Shown piece after piece: positions 946-52,879 of a stretch of 64,000 bases of DNA. The position numbers and the translations under genes were made by a program. A model generated the notes under the pieces. The model was given only the letters and a program-made list of their open reading frames with translations. It made no database searches and had not been told where the DNA came from. Positions within the stretch are counted from its first letter, which is position 1. Each line of letters opens with the position of its first letter. Source of the stretch: Candidatus Liptonbacteria bacterium (GTDB lineage: Bacteria; Patescibacteriota; Minisyncoccia; UBA6257; 2-01-FULL-56-20); contig JAHFLJ010000001.1 of NCBI GenBank assembly GCA_023244935.1, forward strand, positions 13,327 to 77,326. The letters are read 5' to 3'.

Positions 946-1126
946 TGTGGACGAATAAGGAATTGAACCTTTAGACTGCCCTCACGCCAATGCCGTCTTT
1001 GTGCCGCGGGAGAGATTTGAACTCTCATGGTCTTGCGACCGCTGACACCTGAAGCCAGTGCGTCTGCCAGTTTCGCCACCGCGGCATTGGTATAAGGGAT
1101 GAAGCAACCAGCTTCACTACTCGTCC
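946..1126 (-). other. tRNA-like scaffold (acceptor, D-arm, T-arm) enclosing the tRNA-Leu; possible composite or permuted structured RNA
   Basis: Minus strand: 5' GGACGAG-TA-G-TGAA-GCTGGTTGC-TTCA...CCCTT // ...GAGGG-CAGTCT-AAAGG-TTCAATT-CCTTA-TTCGTCC-A-CA 3'. The acceptor (7 bp, one G-U), D-arm, T-loop TTCAATT and a 17-bp helix (983-999 vs 1082-1098) bracket the tRNA-Leu. See findings. Confidence 0.35.
1002..1085 (-). tRNA. tRNA-Leu (anticodon CAG), class II with long variable arm; CCA not encoded
   Basis: Reverse complement reads GCCGCGG-TG-GCG-AAACTGGCAGA-CGC-A-CTGGC-TTCAGGT-GTCAG-CGGTCGCAAGACCATG-GAGAG-TTCAAAT-CTCTC-CCGCGGC-A. It has a perfect 7-bp acceptor, D, anticodon, variable and T arms, and anticodon CAG. 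Confidence 0.85.
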
Positions 1127-5268: not shown

Positions 5269-5288
5269 CCTGCCTGCCGGCAGGCAGG
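5269..5288. repeat. perfect 20-bp palindrome CCTGCCTGCCGGCAGGCAGG (also 9664-9683; 16-bp core at 9491-9506; variant at 50974-50989)
   Basis: An exact self-complementary 20-mer found at three loci, each adjacent to an ATTCGTA-rich sequence. Confidence 0.7.
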
Positions 5289-8081: not shown

Positions 8082-9653
8082 CTACCGAGCACAGCGGAAC
8101 CCGATGCTGCCGCCCGTATCCGTCGGACCAGTGCTCAAGATCAACGTCTCTACCCCAGCGTACGTGTCATAATACCAATCCCCACCGCGAACGAAGGCGT
8201 AAGGAGTTGACCCTCCGGCGGAGTATGAGGAATTTATCCTGCCAATTCCCTGAGTTGCGGTCCAGGCTGAATTTGAAGGTCCAGCGAGAGTTGGAGATAA
8301 GGTTCCCCAATTTGTTATGTTCGGAAACTCTCGCCATCCTGTCGGCTGTGGTTGATTTCCGTTGGTGATTGTGTCGTTAGTCCATTCCCAAACGTTCCCT
8401 GCCAAGTCCCAAATAATTTGACCATTCGAAAGAGTGTGGGCACGTCGGTGAGTGAAGTCGGCTGTGACAAGGTAGGTTGAATTGGTGTCGTCTGCAGATG
8501 CAATTTGCGCCGCAGAACCATTTGAATTTCCTCTGCCCAAGTATCCACTTCCGACTGAACTTCCGCTCCAATTACTTGATACACTCTGTGCATTCCAAGC
8601 AATTGTTTGCCATTCGTTGTTGGTGATGAGATGTGCTCCGATAGATTGGCAGTAAGAATGTGAAGTTGTTTGATCGATATTTGCGATTGGGTATCCGGCA
8701 GGAGTGGAAGTTAAATACCTTCCGGATGTATTACAAGGATATCCAGAATTATTATACGTTTGATATCCGGTATCGTAAGGTGCCGATCCAAGCGGACCCG
8801 TAGTATCCGCGCACTTGGCTTCGTATTTCATCACCCAAAAATCAGATGTTCCGAAGGTGGAGTTGCCAGGGACTCTAATCCAACCATTTGGAAAGATTCC
8901 TGCTCCAAGATTCATATTATTTCCCATTTCAAAAGAAGCGGGCGCTGTGCCTCCGTCGGTATTTCCTTGCACAATGTATTTTTGGGATTCCAGGGATACG
9001 GCGGTTAGCTTCCAGCTTCCTCCAGACATATAGGTGTAATAATTCAGACTTGTAGTGGTATTGATTGGATCGATGGGAAGTTGTGAAATTGGAGAATTGG
9101 ATGATATCTTTTGGAAGTTAACCGGAATCCAGCCGGTGCCGTCGGTTTTACGGAGATTGGCAGTGGTGACACAATTGTATTGCCAGCCGGTTGGGAGAGT
9201 TGGCAGACCTAAGTTGGCGCACGTTGAAGATATGTCCGGAATGGATACATAAACCACCGTGGGTGTTCCCATAGATCCTGTGGAGACATCTGCAGAAAAC
9301 AGATTAAGCGCGGTGTTGATTGTCGAGAGATCCGAGAATCGATTGGAATCTCTGGCTTGTTTGAGTAATTCCCCTGGGTTAAGAGCCATAATAACAACCA
9401 CACTTAAAATCGCGACTAGGGCGAGGACTACCAGGAGTTCGATAAGGGTAAAGCTTCCCCGTTTGTTTACCCTGAGAGTAGTCGAAGCCTTGCCTGCCGG
9501 CAGGCAGGGGTCAGTCTGAGCCTGCGAAGAATCTAAATTAGATCCTTCCCTGCGTTCAGGATGACAGAAAAGAGAATTCAAAAACCTGGATTGTCCAAGC
9601 AAGTTGGACAATGACAGAATAGAAAAGAAACTTCCTTTGTTTTTATTCTTCAT
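8082..9653 (-). CDS. prepilin-type N-terminal domain protein fused to a C-terminal FGE-sulfatase (SUMF1/C-type-lectin-fold) domain; start uncertain
   Basis: NKRGSFTLIELLVVLALVAIL is a class III signal. The C-terminus carries HLITNNEWQ, WDLAGNVWEWT, RGGDW and GFRCAR motifs of the FGE-sulfatase family. The gene is GC-richer than its neighbours. The ORF's first ~60 codons lie in a dispersed repeat, and no ATG/GTG/TTG lies between the repeat and the KRG site. Confidence 0.6.
   Translation of the reverse strand: MKNKNKGSFFSILSLSNLLGQSRFLNSLFCHPERREGSNLDSSQAQTDPCLPAGKASTTLRVNKRGSFTLIELLVVLALVAILSVVVIMALNPGELLKQARDSNRFSDLSTINTALNLFSADVSTGSMGTPTVVYVSIPDISSTCANLGLPTLPTGWQYNCVTTANLRKTDGTGWIPVNFQKISSNSPISQLPIDPINTTTSLNYYTYMSGGSWKLTAVSLESQKYIVQGNTDGGTAPASFEMGNNMNLGAGIFPNGWIRVPGNSTFGTSDFWVMKYEAKCADTTGPLGSAPYDTGYQTYNNSGYPCNTSGRYLTSTPAGYPIANIDQTTSHSYCQSIGAHLITNNEWQTIAWNAQSVSSNWSGSSVGSGYLGRGNSNGSAAQIASADDTNSTYLVTADFTHRRAHTLSNGQIIWDLAGNVWEWTNDTITNGNQPQPTGWREFPNITNWGTLSPTLAGPSNSAWTATQGIGRINSSYSAGGSTPYAFVRGGDWYYDTYAGVETLILSTGPTDTGGSIGFRCAR
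9510..9616. repeat. 107-bp dispersed repeat unit, copy A (copy B at 50990-51096, ~95% identical)
   Basis: gtcagtctgagcctgcgaagaatctaaattagatccttccctgcgttcaggatgac... plus the ttgtccaagcaagttggacaa hairpin. It is internally palindromic and flanked by CCTGCC...GGCAGG palindromes. Confidence 0.7.
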
Positions 9654-9881
9654 TCGTATAATTCCTGCCTGCCGGCAGGCAGGCGTATTGATTCGTAATT
9701 TCGTAATTATTCTAAATTCTATTTTCTGAGTTCTATATTCTATGTTCTAACTATACCACATTTTGCCTCTGGGGGGGGCAACAACAGCTGGGGATAGTTA
9801 AAGGACTCATAGCTTATCAACTTATAACAAATAACTAAAAAGAATTTGAGGCCGGAATTATTAGTGATTGGCGATAAGTCA

Positions 9882-39895: not shown

Positions 39896-40263
39896 GGGGA
39901 TGATGGGCTTCGCCGAGAGACGGAGAGCTTCCCTGCGAGCCGAGCGCAATCTCGCAAATCTTGCACAAACTACTAACTGCCAACTTTAAAGTTGCAGCTC
40001 CTGCCTACGCCTACGCGTAACGCACGGGGATCTCCTGCCTGATTTATCACGCAAGAGGATCGGCTAGCCTTTGCCCTTTGGGTTAATACCGGTCTTATAT
40101 AAAAGGACTACTTCGCGAAGAGGCGACACGACTCTCGCGGATAAAAAATCGTGTCGTCCTGATCAAAAATCAGAACCGTTTCAAATTTATTTTTGAAACT
40201 ACGCTCGTAGACGGGCTGTCTTTGCCCCTTTCGCACGAGGGTTCAACTCCCTCCATCTCCACA
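39896..40263 (+). ncRNA. ssrA: tmRNA (SsrA)
   Basis: 5' GGGGATGATGGGCTTCGCC...GCGAGCCGAG... and 3' GGACGAGGGTTCAACTCCCTCCATCTCC-ACA are clearly alignable to Bacillus-type tmRNA. The tag ORF GCC AAC TTT AAA GTT GCA GCT CCT GCC TAC GCC TAC GCG TAA (39979-40020) gives ANFKVAAPAYAYA. The promoter TTGTCA-17-TATTAT ends 8 nt before the 5' G. Confidence 0.85.
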
Positions 40264-40266
40264 AAC

Positions 40267-49638: not shown

Positions 49639-50643
49639 TTAAAGCAATTCCCCCGGACGACGTTTTTTAAGGTGGTCGTAGGCCGGAGCCAACACTACCC
49701 TGCCTCCGGGAGTTCGTTGTAAAAATCCCAAACTCATTAAATATGGCTCATAAATATCCTCAATAACTCCACGCTCCTCGCTAAGCGCCGCCGCCAACGT
49801 GTTCACGCCAACCGGCCCGCCGTTAAATTTCTCGATCATCATCAGCAATAATTTTCGGTCATTTGGTTCCAGCCCCAGCTCATCAATTTCCAAAAGTTCC
49901 AACGCGTGCATCGCAATTTCTTCATCAATTTTACCGACCGCATTGATCTGCGCAAAATCTCTGGCTCGCTTCAACAGTCTATTTGCGATACGCGGAGTCG
50001 CGCGCGAAGCTCTGGCCAAAACCGAAAGAGAATCCTCGGTTGCGGTTACCCCTAAAATTTTAGCGGAACGCTCCAATATTTTTTTAATATCTTCCACGGA
50101 ATAATAATCTAATCTTAAAATTGCCCCGAACCTGGAACGGAGCGGATGGGATAATAAATTTTCTCGAGTTGTCGCCGCGATCAAAGTAAACGGCGGAAGA
50201 TCCAAGCTTAAAGTCCTGGCGCTCGGCCCCTTTCCGATTACCAAATGAAGCTTGCGCGACTCCATTGCCGGATAAAGAACCTCTTCAATCATCCGATTAA
50301 TTCGATGGGCCTCATCTATAAAAAGAACCTCGCCCGGCTCCAGGTTAGTTAGAATTGCCGCCATATCCCCCATTTTCTCCAAAGCTGGTCCGGAAGTTGT
50401 CCTAACGGGCACTTCCATTTCCCGAGCCACTAAATAAGCCAGGGTGGTCTTGCCAAGTCCGGCCGGTCCCGAAAAAAGAAGATGGTCCATTGATTCTCCT
50501 CGTTTTTTAGCGGCCTCGATAATAACCTTCAGATTCCTTTTAATCTTGTCCTGCCCTACATATTCATCCCAAACCGCCGGACGTAAAGCCTGATCTATTC
50601 CTAAATCGTCTGGGGAAAAACTGTTGATATTTTTAGCGTCCAT
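49639..50643 (-). CDS. ruvB: Holliday junction DNA helicase RuvB
   Basis: Walker A GPAGLGKTTLA, sensor motifs, and a C-terminal winged helix. 334 aa. Confidence 0.9.
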   Translation of the reverse strand: MDAKNINSFSPDDLGIDQALRPAVWDEYVGQDKIKRNLKVIIEAAKKRGESMDHLLFSGPAGLGKTTLAYLVAREMEVPVRTTSGPALEKMGDMAAILTNLEPGEVLFIDEAHRINRMIEEVLYPAMESRKLHLVIGKGPSARTLSLDLPPFTLIAATTRENLLSHPLRSRFGAILRLDYYSVEDIKKILERSAKILGVTATEDSLSVLARASRATPRIANRLLKRARDFAQINAVGKIDEEIAMHALELLEIDELGLEPNDRKLLLMMIEKFNGGPVGVNTLAAALSEERGVIEDIYEPYLMSLGFLQRTPGGRVVLAPAYDHLKKRRPGELL

Positions 50644-50713
50644 TTGACTTGTATTTTATATTTCTATGTTATAATGTGAACTCCCGCCAAGCAATTGTGT
50701 CGCGCGGTAAGAC

Positions 50714-50742
50714 TTGACAAATTTATCTAGGAGTGCTATCAT
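50714..50742 (+). promoter_or_regulatory. sigma70-like promoter TTGACA-17-TATCAT driving a non-coding unit
   Basis: The -35 is at 50714-50719 and the -10 at 50737-50742. Confidence 0.55.
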
Positions 50743-50748
50743 ATACCC

Positions 50749-50953
50749 AATCTCGAAGTGTTCATTTCAAATCTGGGGGCAGGAATTTTTCTCAGTTTTA
50801 GGATGGTTTGGCTTCGGCGAAACCTCTCCTCGGTTTAATTCTATCCTCTTTCCGTTTTACGCGAAAGAGAACCAAATCCATTTATGGACGTCCCCAGGTT
50901 TGAGTTGATCACTTCTCATCCGGACACTGCATGCAGTGTCCGGGTTTTGTTTT
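50749..50953 (+). ncRNA. candidate ~200-nt structured sRNA (6S-like closing helix) with its own promoter and terminator
   Basis: No credible ORF. The 5' cgaagtg...ttcaaatctgggg pairs with the 3' ccccaggtttga...cacttct (6 + 12 bp). The terminator is ccggacactgca-tgcagtgtccgg + gttttgtttt (50920-50953). Confidence 0.4.
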
Positions 50954-50989
50954 ACATATTCATTCGTAAAATTCCTGCCGATAGGCAGG

Positions 50990-51096
50990 GTCATTCTGAG
51001 CCCGCGAAGAATCTAAATTAGATCCTTCCCTGCGTTCAGGATGACAGAAAAAAGAATTCAAAAAACTGGATTGTCCAAGCAAGTTGGACAATGACA
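50990..51096. repeat. 107-bp dispersed repeat unit, copy B
   Basis: ~95% identical to 9510-9616, preceded by the cctgccgataggcagg palindrome and followed by an ATTCGTA-rich sequence. It generates the spurious ORF 50960-51175. Confidence 0.7.
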
Positions 51097-51202
51097 AACC
51101 GAAAAGCTTCTTTCTCTTGTTCGTATTATTTTTATTATTCGTAGACATTCGTATATTAATATTGTTATGAGTCACAAGTTATAAGTTATTAGTCATAAGT
51201 TC

Positions 51203-52879
51203 CTAAATCCACGGAATCGGCCCGGTCGTCCCCTCAACTTCGTCAAAAGTAGTCATCCCGGACAAAACTTTCAAAACTCCGTCTTGTTGCATGGTCACCA
51301 TCATCTGCTTCTCCGCCAGCTTTCGGAGAGAGCGCTCGGAAACTTCGGTTAAAATAACTTCTTCCAACTCCGGCCCACCTTTGAAAAACTCGAAAATTCC
51401 TCGTCTTCCTTTATAGCCAAAACCATTACAAGTCTCACAGCCAACCGGCGCGAAAACCGTTATTTTTTCATATGGTTTTTTATCTACTCTTGCCGGAACC
51501 TTTTCCAAATATTTTTTTATCTGCTCGATTTTTTTTGCGTCCAAATCAACCGGTTTTTTACAATTGTCGCAAAGCTTCCTAACTAAGCGTTGAGCAATGA
51601 TTAAAGTAACCGCCGGACCGATGCTTGCCGGCTTTACGCCAACGTCAACAAGACGCGGGATTGCGCCGACCGCGCTATTGGTATGAAGCGTAGACAAAAC
51701 CAAATGCCCGGTTAACGCTGCTTGAATCGCAATTTCCGCAGTCTCTTGATCGCGGATTTCACCGACGAGAAGCACATCCGGGTCTTGACGCACGATTGCT
51801 CTTAATCCTCCGGCGAAAGTATACCCGGCGTCCGGATCAACTTGTGTTTGCTCAATTCCTAAAATTCTATATTCAATCGGATCTTCAACGGTAATAATTT
51901 TTGTTTCCGGGTCAACCAACTTTCGGAGGAACGCGTAAAGAGTCGTGGTTTTTCCGGAGCCGGTCGGTCCTGTATTCAAAATCAGTCCATTTGGCCTTTT
52001 TAGCTCCGCTTCCACCAGAGCCAGGTCGTCCTCTCGCAGACCGAGCTGTGGCAAGGTCACATTAATTCCCGCCGGATCCAAAATACGCATAACAATTGTT
52101 TCTCCGAATTCCGAAGGGATAAGCGAAACGCGCATTTCGATTTCTTTTTCCGGCAACCCTATTGTAAATCTTCCGTCTTGTGGCTCGGAATGAACATTTA
52201 ATTTTAATTCGCAAAGTAATTTTATTCTGGTAACCAAGCTGACATAGTTTTTTATCGGCAAATTTGCGATGTCGTGAAGTAGTCCATCCACGCGATACCT
52301 AACCCGCGCATCTTTTTCTTGAGCTTCAAAATGAACGTCAGAGGCTCTGGTGGTTAACGCTCCGGCTAAAAGTGTTTCCAAAAGACTCGACACGCTTGCG
52401 GATTTATAATCAAAGGTTGCCAGGGTCTGTTGAACCATCTGAAAAGTCTTAAACTTTTGCATATCCTCAGCGAATCTCACCGCGTCGATATTTATTCCGC
52501 CGGTAATTGACTCTTTCCCTTTAGAAACAAATTTATAAAATTCCAGGGCTTGTTTAACCGCCGACAAAGAGACTACGAACGGCTTAATTTTATATCCCTT
52601 TTCTTCCAAATAGGTAATCGCTTTTTGCGCCTCTTCGGTTGTTGGGTCATAAAAAATTACCGCTAAGTCTTTATTATTTAATTGTATGCCAACTCCCAAA
52701 GCCTTCCTTGCTTCCTCTTCCGGAAGCAAAGCAACCGCCTCAATCGAAATCGGAGTTTTCCCTAGGTCAGCGTAAGTCAACTTAAGTCTCTCGGCGCGAC
52801 GCTTCGCTTCCCGCTCCTCTCCGGCGCGCCTAATTGCTTCTAATTTATTCGTTAACTCACCTTGGGGTGTAAGGTTCAT
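51203..52879 (-). CDS. pilB: type II/IV secretion system ATPase (PilB/GspE family)
   Basis: Walker A GPTGSGKTTT, Asp box, Walker B and His box, a tetracysteine motif CDNC...CETC, and an N-terminal GSPII-like domain. Confidence 0.85.
   Translation of the reverse strand: MNLTPQGELTNKLEAIRRAGEEREAKRRAERLKLTYADLGKTPISIEAVALLPEEEARKALGVGIQLNNKDLAVIFYDPTTEEAQKAITYLEEKGYKIKPFVVSLSAVKQALEFYKFVSKGKESITGGINIDAVRFAEDMQKFKTFQMVQQTLATFDYKSASVSSLLETLLAGALTTRASDVHFEAQEKDARVRYRVDGLLHDIANLPIKNYVSLVTRIKLLCELKLNVHSEPQDGRFTIGLPEKEIEMRVSLIPSEFGETIVMRILDPAGINVTLPQLGLREDDLALVEAELKRPNGLILNTGPTGSGKTTTLYAFLRKLVDPETKIITVEDPIEYRILGIEQTQVDPDAGYTFAGGLRAIVRQDPDVLLVGEIRDQETAEIAIQAALTGHLVLSTLHTNSAVGAIPRLVDVGVKPASIGPAVTLIIAQRLVRKLCDNCKKPVDLDAKKIEQIKKYLEKVPARVDKKPYEKITVFAPVGCETCNGFGYKGRRGIFEFFKGGPELEEVILTEVSERSLRKLAEKQMMVTMQQDGVLKVLSGMTTFDEVEGTTGPIPWI

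What the first reader, a model, noticed from the sequence alone, without database searches (positions are those of the whole stretch)
50714..50953. Orphan promoter-to-terminator unit encoding a ~200-nt structured RNA (6S-like architecture)
TTGACA(50714)-17-TATCAT(50737) predicts a transcription start at ~50749. An intrinsic terminator (12-bp stem + GTTTTGTTTT) ends at 50953. No plausible ORF lies between. The predicted 5' end (cgaagtg...ttcaaatctgggg) pairs with the 3' end (ccccaggtttga...cacttct) in a 6+12-bp interrupted closing helix. Local hairpins, including a UUCG-type loop (ggcttcggc), sit in the centre. This rod with paired ends is the layout of 6S RNA. No 6S, SRP or RNase P RNA was otherwise recognised in the window.
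Basis: partly seen in the sequence, partly recalled or inferred. Interest (0 to 1): 0.55.

Follow-up and report, generated by a model that had tools for sequence, protein, structure and literature searches.

The report
New structured RNA gene in Parcubacteria
The flagged stretch is a real, stand-alone gene for a ~165-200-nt folded RNA. It is conserved next to ruvB and a pilus ATPase gene in more than 140 uncultivated Parcubacteria sequences, folds as a four-armed junction rather than the 6S RNA rod, and matches no catalogued RNA family.

Summary
A near-consensus sigma-70 promoter (TTGACA-17-TGcTATCAT, 50714-50742), an intrinsic terminator (50918-50953), no conserved ORF, and a closing helix that pairs the two ends are all present. 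The fold is far more stable than shuffled sequence (z = -8.7).

The RNA is conserved in 34 Parcubacteria genome loci and about 112 of 120 fetched metagenome contigs. It usually sits divergent from ruvB and convergent with a PilB/GspE-type ATPase gene.

Covariation is strong: 93.7% of pair cells are paired, 40 of 53 pairs show compensatory changes, and 0 of 500 shuffles reach this. It defines a four-way junction:
- a 21-26-bp closing helix, P1;
- a long P2-P3 arm with a UNCG tetraloop;
- two small hairpins, P4 and P5.

Only one nucleotide separates P1 from P2 on the 5' side, so there is no 6S-type central bubble. Rfam 15 gives no match to 6S, SRP, RNase P or anything else, in the window or in two divergent homologues.

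Conservation lies in helix sequences near the junction, not in single-stranded segments. That argues against a base-pairing sRNA or a riboswitch and for a shape-specific, probably protein-binding, abundant RNA.

Verdict: a genuine RNA gene of an undescribed family. The 6S reading is not supported, and the function is unknown.

The parts
50714..50742 (+). Sigma-70-type promoter: -35 TTGACA (50714-50719), 17-nt spacer, extended -10 TGcTATCAT (50734-50742). Predicted start at A50749/A50750.
   Evidence: The scan gives 11/12 matches with TG. It is the best such site in the 64-kb window. A promoter of at least 10/12 lies upstream of 70 of 81 distinct homologues, with a perfect TTGACA in 66 and the TG in 68. 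The transcription start itself is inferred.
50749..50953 (+). Predicted primary transcript (~203 nt). The conserved structured core is 50755-50915 (161 nt).
   Evidence: MFE z = -8.66. Covariance model R1 scores 139 bits on the + strand and 30 bits on the - strand. G.U+U.G pair cells number 470 against 100 A.C+C.A, so this strand is the RNA. The ends are inferred from the promoter and terminator. No expression data are available.
50755..50780 (+). P1 5' strand of the closing helix. It pairs with 50890-50915.
   Evidence: 21 model pairs; 17 show changes on both sides across 84 distinct sequences and 93% of cells are paired. They are the top mutual-information pairs. The inner part, CUGnGGG/CCCnCAG, is nearly invariant.
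50782..50791 (+). P2 5' strand (GGAAUUUUUC). It pairs with 50833-50842. A single junction nucleotide, A50781, separates it from P1.
   Evidence: 10 pairs, 7 with compensatory changes, 96% of cells paired. RNAalifold on the MAFFT alignment finds this helix independently. In this window three central positions are U.U.
50801..50829 (+). P3 hairpin: invariant GGA/UCC base, a 5-bp variable helix, a G.G/U mismatch, and the tip GC-UUCG-GC (loop 50813-50816).
   Evidence: 98% of cells paired. The five inner pairs covary (for example UA 26, CG 23, AU 19). The GGA/UCC base and the G-C under the loop are identical in 83 of 83 rows. This is the most widely conserved part in distant homologues.
50833..50842 (+). 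P2 3' strand (GUUUAAUUCU).
50846..50869 (+). P4 hairpin (CUCUUUCC...GCGAAAGAG).
   Evidence: Present in every homologue when folded alone. All 8 model pairs show compensatory changes.
50877..50888 (+). P5 small, variable hairpin (UCCA-UUUA-UGGA).
   Evidence: A hairpin of 4-7 bp with unrelated sequence sits at this place in all 26 close homologues. All 4 model pairs are compensatory, and 80% of cells are paired. In distant homologues it is replaced by a hairpin on the 5' side of P2.
50890..50915 (+). P1 3' strand.
   Evidence: As for the P1 5' strand.
50918..50953 (+). Intrinsic terminator: 12-bp stem with 7 G-C pairs, 4-nt loop, then UUUUGUUUU.
   Evidence: Among homologues, 24 of 81 have a separate terminator-like hairpin and 32 of 81 have a U-tract directly after P1.

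Best explanation
This is a stand-alone gene for a stable, probably abundant, non-coding RNA of a previously uncatalogued family, restricted so far to Parcubacteria (Paceibacteria-type Candidate Phyla Radiation (CPR) bacteria).

Shown:
- a near-consensus sigma-70 promoter lies upstream of a ~165-nt core;
- the 5' and 3' ends of the core are locked in a 21-26-bp helix (P1);
- P1 closes a four-way junction carrying a long P2-P3 arm capped by a UNCG tetraloop and two small hairpins (P4, P5);
- a terminator hairpin, or a U-tract directly after P1, lies at the predicted 3' end.

Inferred:
- The RNA acts in trans through its folded shape, not by base pairing. The conserved, non-covarying nucleotides are helix sequences around the junction and in the P3 arm (inner P1 CUGnGGG/CCCnCAG, P2 GGAAU/AUUCU, P3 GGA/UCCU, tip GG-UNCG-C). 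All loops, bulges and junction strands vary in sequence and length.
- That pattern best fits sequence-specific recognition by a protein partner, that is, a ribonucleoprotein scaffold or decoy. The long terminal helix would protect both ends and may be an RNase III processing site.

The partner and the cellular process are unknown. It is not a 6S RNA by structure or sequence.
For: - Reality and strand: z = -8.66. Of 4162 pair cells, 470 are G.U/U.G and 100 are A.C/C.A. The tetraloop is UNCG on this strand. A conserved promoter sits on this strand in 70 of 81 homologues.
- Homology: nhmmer finds the RNA upstream of ruvB in 26 genome loci. Model R1 adds 8 more distant loci. A 42-nt degenerate pattern found at least 120 metagenome contigs, about 112 of them confirmed by the models, with one copy per contig.
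- Structure: RNAalifold on an unfitted MAFFT alignment finds P1, P2 and P3, with 24 of 44 pairs compensatory. P4 and P5 fold in every sequence taken alone. On 84 distinct sequences 93.7% of cells are paired, 40 of 53 pairs show double changes, 0 of 500 shuffles reach this, and slid controls reach only 39-55%. The 15 highest mutual-information pairs are all annotated pairs.
- Not coding. No tRNA or tmRNA is called here.
- No Rfam 15 family matches.
- Conserved positions are helical and unpaired positions are variable.
- No same-strand downstream gene: the next gene is a convergent PilB-type ATPase in 63 of 74 contigs.
Against: - No expression data, so transcription, the ends and the abundance are all inferred from sequence signals.
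- No partner protein is identified, and no known protein-binding RNA motif (k-turn, loop E, T-loop) was recognised.
- Only conventional secondary-structure covariation was tested, so a tertiary fold with a ligand pocket or catalytic site cannot be excluded.
- The covariation statistics on A4 and A5 come from alignments fitted to the model, although one search is independent of it.
- The tight convergent arrangement with the pilB-like gene could mean a cis role that I have discounted.
Confidence: 0.6

Rival explanations
1. It is the Parcubacterial 6S RNA, or a functional analogue. It would bind sigma-70 RNA polymerase as an open-promoter mimic and be released by pRNA synthesis, with an unusually branched centre.
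For: The size, the independent strong promoter and the terminator fit, and the ends pair in a long, imperfect closing stem. Some 6S RNAs form a hairpin in the 3' strand of the bubble (PMC8876501). No paper in the searched library reports a 6S RNA in CPR bacteria, so the niche may be vacant.
Against: There is no central bubble. The 5' strand between P1 and P2 is one nucleotide, so there is no single-stranded template for pRNA. The largest unpaired stretches are a 5-12-nt variable bulge inside the P2-P3 arm and a 6-12-nt linker between P4 and P5. Two or three covariation-supported branches interrupt what would have to be a rod. No Rfam 6S-type model scores even at E<=10 on three family members. 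The conservation pattern, invariant helix sequences, is unlike 6S.
Confidence: 0.1
2. It is a cis-acting element tied to the pilB-like gene. It could be a sensor (riboswitch-like) or constitutive antisense/convergent transcription unit, whose read-through or complementarity to the pilB 3' end controls that mRNA.
For: Convergent adjacency to the pilB-type gene is kept in 63 of 74 contigs, including 12 where no ruvB match lies upstream (in several of them the contig ends first). The gap is often 0-30 nt and sometimes negative. Only about 30-40% of homologues show an obvious terminator.
Against: In this window a strong terminator and about 250 bp, including an inserted repeat, separate the RNA from pilB, so overlap is not conserved. 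At least four contigs with ample downstream sequence have no pilB there (L016, L018, L085, L104). A 21-26-bp P1 is far too stable for a switching helix. The junction strands are not conserved, so a ligand pocket is unlikely.
Confidence: 0.1
3. The functional molecule is the opposite strand: a structured intergenic spacer, acting as pilB terminator or ruvB leader, within a pilB-ruvB co-directional transcript.
For: pilB and ruvB are co-directional, and the reverse complement also folds well (z = -7.1).
Against: G.U pairs outnumber A.C by 4.7 to 1 on the + strand. The tetraloop is UNCG only on the + strand. A near-consensus promoter is conserved on the + strand in 70 of 81 homologues. The + strand is 12 kcal/mol more stable. 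ruvB has its own promoter-like site at 50680-50653.
Confidence: 0.03
4. It is a highly diverged member of another universal RNA (SRP RNA, RNase P RNA, or a Y/tRNA-like RNA) that the models miss.
For: CPR RNase P RNAs are diverged enough to need lowered thresholds (PMC8172020). The GGGGGC/GCCCCC clamp and an asymmetric loop in the long arm loosely recall 4.5S RNA (my recollection of the E. coli sequence, not a test).
Against: No hit to any SRP, RNase P, Y RNA or tRNA-clan model at E<=10 on three members. ARAGORN finds nothing. There is no GNRA-tetraloop/symmetric-loop SRP motif, and no RNase P conserved regions were seen. According to PMC8172020, RNase P RNA was still found with RF00010 in all 35 CPR genomes examined. 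The RNA is about half the length of a typical bacterial RNase P RNA (from general knowledge).
Confidence: 0.04

Closest known systems
6S RNA (Rfam RF00013; ssrS)
   Same: Stand-alone gene with a strong housekeeping promoter. About 170-200 nt. The 5' and 3' ends pair in a long, slightly imperfect terminal stem, and there is a second long helical arm.
   Different: There is no large central bubble. One nucleotide links the two arms on the 5' side, and the centre is a four-way junction with two extra hairpins. No covariance-model match. The conserved nucleotides are helix sequences. RNA polymerase binding is untested.
Orphan structured bacterial ncRNA classes found by comparative genomics (e.g. 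raiA motif RNA, PMC10861870)
   Same: Lineage-restricted, multi-helix, covariation-supported RNA of about 200 nt with its own transcription signals and no known biochemical function.
   Different: No sequence or model similarity to any of those in Rfam 15. It has a different fold (simple four-way junction, no pseudoknot detected) and a different host group (CPR/Parcubacteria).
Terminal-stem / central-domain / apical-stem protein-decoy RNAs (bacterial Y RNAs; adenovirus VA RNA, from general knowledge)
   Same: A long terminal helix made by both ends, a branched central domain and a long apical arm. This layout is typical of RNAs that work by binding a protein.
   Different: No homology. No Ro/Rsr gene or tRNA-like T-arm signature was seen, and no Rfam Y RNA family scores at E<=10. 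The resemblance is architectural only.

Membership tests
6S RNA | About 150-200 nt stand-alone transcript whose 5' and 3' ends form an imperfect closing stem. | tested here: met
   The core is 161 nt and the predicted transcript about 203 nt. P1 is 6+3+15 bp in the window, and 17 of 21 model pairs are compensatory.
6S RNA | A large, mostly unstructured central bubble between the closing and apical arms (open-promoter mimic), with a single-stranded 5' strand that templates pRNA (PMC8876501). | tested here: not met
   J1/2 is one nucleotide. The 3' side is occupied by the covariation-supported hairpins P4 and P5. Distant homologues have a hairpin on the 5' side instead.
6S RNA | Rod shape: only two helical arms. 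| tested here: not met
   Four helices meet at one junction in all close homologues. The MFE, the RNAalifold consensus and the covariance-model alignment agree.
6S RNA | Match to the Rfam 6S covariance models. | tested here: not met
   No 6S-type hit at gathering score, or at E<=10 on window 50600-51250, L030 3600-3900 and L003 2000-2280.
6S RNA | Binds sigma-70 RNA polymerase holoenzyme and templates pRNA. | not testable with these tools
   Requires biochemistry.
SRP RNA (4.5S / large SRP) | Domain IV hairpin with a GNRA tetraloop and conserved symmetric and asymmetric loops; match to the Rfam SRP models. | tested here: not met
   The only conserved tetraloop is UNCG, above five covarying Watson-Crick pairs. 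No SRP model hit.
RNase P RNA | Conserved P4 pseudoknot core and CR-I to CR-V; match to RF00010, possible at lowered threshold even in CPR (PMC8172020). | tested here: not met
   No hit at E<=10. No pseudoknot signal in the mutual-information analysis. The length is 161 nt.
tRNA / tmRNA / tRNA-like Y RNA | Cloverleaf with a T-loop, or detection by ARAGORN or the Rfam tRNA clan. | tested here: not met
   ARAGORN finds 0 genes in 50500-51300. No Rfam hit. The P4 and P5 loops are not conserved.
Riboswitch or cis-regulatory leader | Sits upstream of a same-strand gene. Conserved unpaired nucleotides in the junction. A short, switchable P1 coupled to an expression platform. | tested here: not met
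   The next gene is convergent. The junction strands are variable. P1 is 21-26 bp.
Base-pairing (antisense) sRNA | A conserved single-stranded seed region. | tested here: not met
   Only 8 unpaired consensus columns reach 80% identity (four of them 97% or more). They are isolated positions in the tetraloop, the G.G/U mismatch, the U after UCC, two bases of the P2-P3 bulge and one in J2/4. There is no conserved run.
Small protein gene | An open reading frame conserved among homologues. | tested here: not met
   Most of the 27 homologues have stops in all three + strand frames, and none shares a frame. Indels are not multiples of three.

The most novel reading that the evidence does not exclude
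This RNA could be the RNA subunit of a Parcubacteria-specific housekeeping ribonucleoprotein. That would make it a new class of cellular RNA on the level of 6S, SRP or Y RNA, in a lineage with drastically reduced genomes where every retained, strongly expressed gene is likely to matter. Its protein partner and pathway would be unknown to current biology.
Probability: 0.35. Interest if true: 0.8.

Novelty: categorically new. Interest (0 to 1): 0.62.

Why it matters
CPR/Patescibacteria make up a large share of bacterial diversity. They are almost all uncultivated, have tiny genomes and lack many standard regulators. I found no paper describing lineage-specific non-coding RNAs in them in the searched library.

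This RNA has one of the best promoters in the window, strong purifying selection on its fold, and single-copy conservation across many Parcubacteria from groundwater, peat, soil and lake sediments. It is therefore a concrete and tractable handle on unknown biology. The covariance model can annotate it in thousands of metagenome-assembled genomes. The RNA can be synthesised for pull-downs, probing and structure work without culturing the organism.

The finding also corrects a tempting mis-annotation: paired ends plus a promoter and terminator do not make a 6S RNA.

Tried and rejected
- Rfam 15 at gathering score on the whole window found only a tmRNA and a tRNA elsewhere.
- Rfam at E<=10 on the intergenic region and on two divergent homologues gave only noise. 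That noise includes a 22-bit CrcZ match to an A-rich stretch at 51061-51168 on the - strand, plus miRNA and lncRNA models.
- Rfam on 16 CPR loci, including other classes, found nothing at the syntenic spot.
- Mobile element or MITE: the RNA is single-copy in the window and syntenic across genomes. The repeat found in the same intergenic region lies downstream of the terminator and is a separate element.
- Phage origin: 0 matches to the core pattern in viral contigs.
- Coding: rejected.
- tRNA-like: rejected.
- Pseudoknot or extra tertiary pairs: the mutual-information scan found only extensions of P1, P2 and P3.
- Opposite-strand function: rejected on G.U asymmetry and promoter conservation.
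- Wider reach: the broader model R2 found no member in Doudnabacteria, Saccharibacteria, other CPR or non-CPR ruvB loci.
- Pattern specificity: eight of the 120 metagenome pattern hits are chance matches.
- Literature: five full-text searches found no paper on 6S or novel structured RNAs in CPR.
- The 12-nt perfect inverted repeat between 50778-50789 and 50968-50979 was considered as an alternative pairing. It is not conserved, because its second arm belongs to the genome-specific repeat.

Full report
**Setting.** The finding lies in a 560-bp intergenic region. On one side is ruvB (49639-50643, - strand; RuvB_N, lid and C domains, E = 8.5e-71). On the other is a PilB/GspE-type secretion ATPase gene (51203-52879, - strand; T2SSE, E = 2e-122). 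The best relatives of the RuvB protein (up to 80% identity) are metagenome-assembled genomes labelled Parcubacteria, Paceibacteria, Liptonbacteria and Minisyncoccia. The window is therefore from a Candidate Phyla Radiation (CPR) bacterium.

**The observation.**
- The promoter is TTGACA-17-TATCAT with an extended -10 TG, 11 of 12 matches. Only seven sites of that quality occur on both strands of the 64-kb window. This is the only one that combines a perfect -35, a 17-nt spacer and the TG.
- The terminator is a 12-bp stem with 7 G-C pairs at 50918-50945, followed by UUUUGUUUU.
- The predicted transcript, 50749-50953, folds to -86.6 kcal/mol. Dinucleotide shuffles give -50.7 +/- 4.2, so z = -8.66.
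- The ends pair over 26 positions, 50755-80 with 50890-915, as 6+3+15 bp with two U.U mismatches.
- No tRNA or tmRNA is called here.

**It is conserved.**
- nhmmer with the window RNA found a homologue at the same place, upstream of and divergent from ruvB, in 26 of the Parcubacteria genome loci fetched through RuvB. E-values go down to 2e-22.
- A covariance model (R1) built from 26 of these scored 127-163 bits on them and 139 bits on the window. It detected eight further, more distant loci (87 to 18 bits), including Azambacteria, always at the same position.
- A 42-nt degenerate pattern for the P3 arm matched nothing in viral contigs.
- About 112 of those 120 are confirmed by the models, one copy each. 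Eight are chance matches.
- A broader model (R2) found no member in ruvB loci of Doudnabacteria, Saccharibacteria, other CPR or non-CPR bacteria.
- The contig names suggest groundwater, peat and other environmental samples. I did not look up their sample descriptions.

**Gene order.** In 51 of 74 metagenome contigs the RNA is flanked by ruvB (upstream, divergent) and the pilB-type gene (downstream, convergent). Twelve contigs show only pilB and eight only ruvB, and in some of these the contig ends before the other gene could appear. The RNA's 3' end often lies 0-30 nt from the pilB stop codon, or even overlaps it. Both linkages break in some genomes, so I read this as inherited synteny in compact genomes rather than proof of a functional tie.

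**Structure.**
- RNAalifold on a plain MAFFT alignment, not fitted to any structure, predicts three helices. These are the end-to-end helix P1, a helix P2 that starts one nucleotide after P1, and a hairpin P3 with a UUCG loop. Of 44 pairs, 24 show compensatory changes.
- The region after P2 was misaligned by MAFFT. Folded sequence by sequence, it always forms two hairpins, P4 and P5, with unrelated loop and distal-stem sequences.
- On the model-based alignment of 84 distinct sequences, 93.7% of pair cells are standard pairs. Forty of 53 pairs have changes on both sides (719 cells). None of 500 column shuffles reaches any of the five measures. Sliding the partners by 1-3 columns drops pairing to 39-55% (28-sequence version).
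- A structure-blind mutual-information scan ranks annotated pairs in its top 15 places. It otherwise only extends P1, P2 and P3, with no sign of a pseudoknot.
- In distant homologues P1 is a near-perfect 26-bp helix. The small extra hairpin sits 5' of P2 instead of 3' of P4.
- The core of the family is therefore P1 + P2/P3 + P4 plus one movable hairpin.

**Which strand, and is it coding?** Among 4162 pair cells, G.U plus U.G number 470 and A.C plus C.A number 100. The tetraloop is UNCG only on the + strand. A promoter of at least 10/12 lies within 110 nt upstream on this strand in 70 of 81 distinct homologues, with TTGACA perfect in 66 and the extended TG in 68. Its -10 element ends a median of 9.5 nt before the model start. 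The RNA is therefore transcribed opposite to pilB and ruvB. Most homologues have stop codons in all three frames, and none shares a frame.

**What it is not.**
- 6S RNA is defined as a ~200-nt rod with a largely unstructured central bubble between a closing stem and an apical stem. The 5' bubble strand serves as the pRNA template (PMC8876501).
- Here the closing stem is present, but the junction on the 5' side is one nucleotide. The centre is a four-way junction of covarying helices.
- No Rfam 15 model (6S, SRP, RNase P, Y RNA, riboswitches or orphan motifs) reaches E<=10 on the window or on two divergent homologues. None reaches the gathering score anywhere relevant.
- CPR RNase P RNAs, though diverged, are still found with RF00010 (PMC8172020).
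- The 6S interpretation therefore fails two structural criteria and the model test. RNA polymerase binding remains untested.

**How it probably works (inference).** The consensus shows where selection acts.
- Nearly invariant positions are the inner P1 (cUGnGGG / CCCnCAg), the base of P2 (gGAAU / AUUCU), the base of P3 (GGA / UCC plus an invariant unpaired U) and the P3 tip (GG-UNCG-C).
- The outer P1, the middle of P3, P4 and P5 covary freely in the same sequences.
- All loops, the 5-12-nt bulge between P2 and P3, and the junction linkers vary in sequence and length.

A base-pairing sRNA would conserve a single-stranded seed. A riboswitch would conserve junction nucleotides and have a short P1. 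6S conserves shape but little sequence. Invariant helix sequences clustered around a junction and along one arm are what sequence-specific protein recognition, or fixed tertiary packing, produces.

Three further features fit this reading: the near-consensus promoter, ends buried in a long helix, and a U-tract directly after P1 in 32 of 81 homologues or a separate terminator in 24 of 81. Taken together, the most likely reading is an abundant, stable, trans-acting RNA that functions as a ribonucleoprotein. The 21-26-bp P1 is long enough to be an RNase III site, so end maturation by RNase III is plausible but untested.

**Novelty and verdict.** The gene is real. The RNA belongs to no family in Rfam 15, and five literature searches found no description of such an RNA in CPR bacteria. 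I class it as a new RNA family of unknown function, widely conserved in Parcubacteria. Rivals retained at low probability are a 6S-like polymerase decoy (0.10), a cis or antisense role toward pilB (0.10), an extremely diverged universal RNA (0.04) and opposite-strand function (0.03).

Noticed in passing
window 50959-51098 and 9493-9669: A ~140-bp repeat lies just downstream of the RNA's terminator, and a second copy lies 41 kb away (109 bp at 96% identity). It folds into three hairpins on either strand and contains the - strand terminator of the pilB-like gene (51092-51070). It is absent from all 200 related loci, so it is a genome-specific REP/MITE-like element. CCTGCC-N-GGCAGG hairpins also occur at 5269 and 9664.
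   Followed up: partly
window 50778-50789 and 50968-50979: A 12-nt perfect inverted repeat (GGCAGGAATTTT / AAAATTCCTGCC) links the RNA's P1/P2 junction to the start of the repeat element beyond the terminator. It is not conserved in homologues. It is either chance or a by-product of the repeat's insertion.
   Followed up: partly
window 39896-40264 (+) and 1002-1085 (-): A full-length tmRNA gene (115 bits, RF00023) and an 84-nt tRNA are the only Rfam gathering-level hits in the 64-kb window.
   Followed up: no
window 8082-9653 (-): The mechanical 523-aa ORF runs into the second copy of the repeat at its 5' end. The true start codon is probably further downstream, so that the repeat is intergenic there too.
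   Followed up: no
loci L004, L020, L092, L112, L118, L136, L143 (RNA 3' end against the pilB stop): In several genomes the stop codon of the convergent pilB-type gene lies within, or less than 10 nt from, the 3' strand of the RNA's closing helix. The pilB mRNA 3' end must then be antisense to part of the RNA gene.
   Followed up: partly
loci L022 3715-3889, L030 3657-3807, L055 3699-3873, L029 3422-3572 (- strand): Distant family members keep P1, P2-P3 and P4. They have a near-perfect 26-bp P1 and carry the extra small hairpin between P1 and P2 rather than after P4. This is a domain rearrangement within the family.
   Followed up: partly
window 50680-50653 (-): A TTCACA-16-TAAAAT promoter-like site for ruvB sits about 35 bp from the RNA's -35 box, giving a back-to-back divergent promoter pair.
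   Followed up: no
window 51061-51168 (-): A weak (22-bit, E = 7e-4) match to the Pseudomonas CrcZ model, caused by an A-rich CAACAAUAA-type stretch upstream of nothing obvious. It is far below the gathering score (95 bits) and is treated as low-complexity noise.
   Followed up: no
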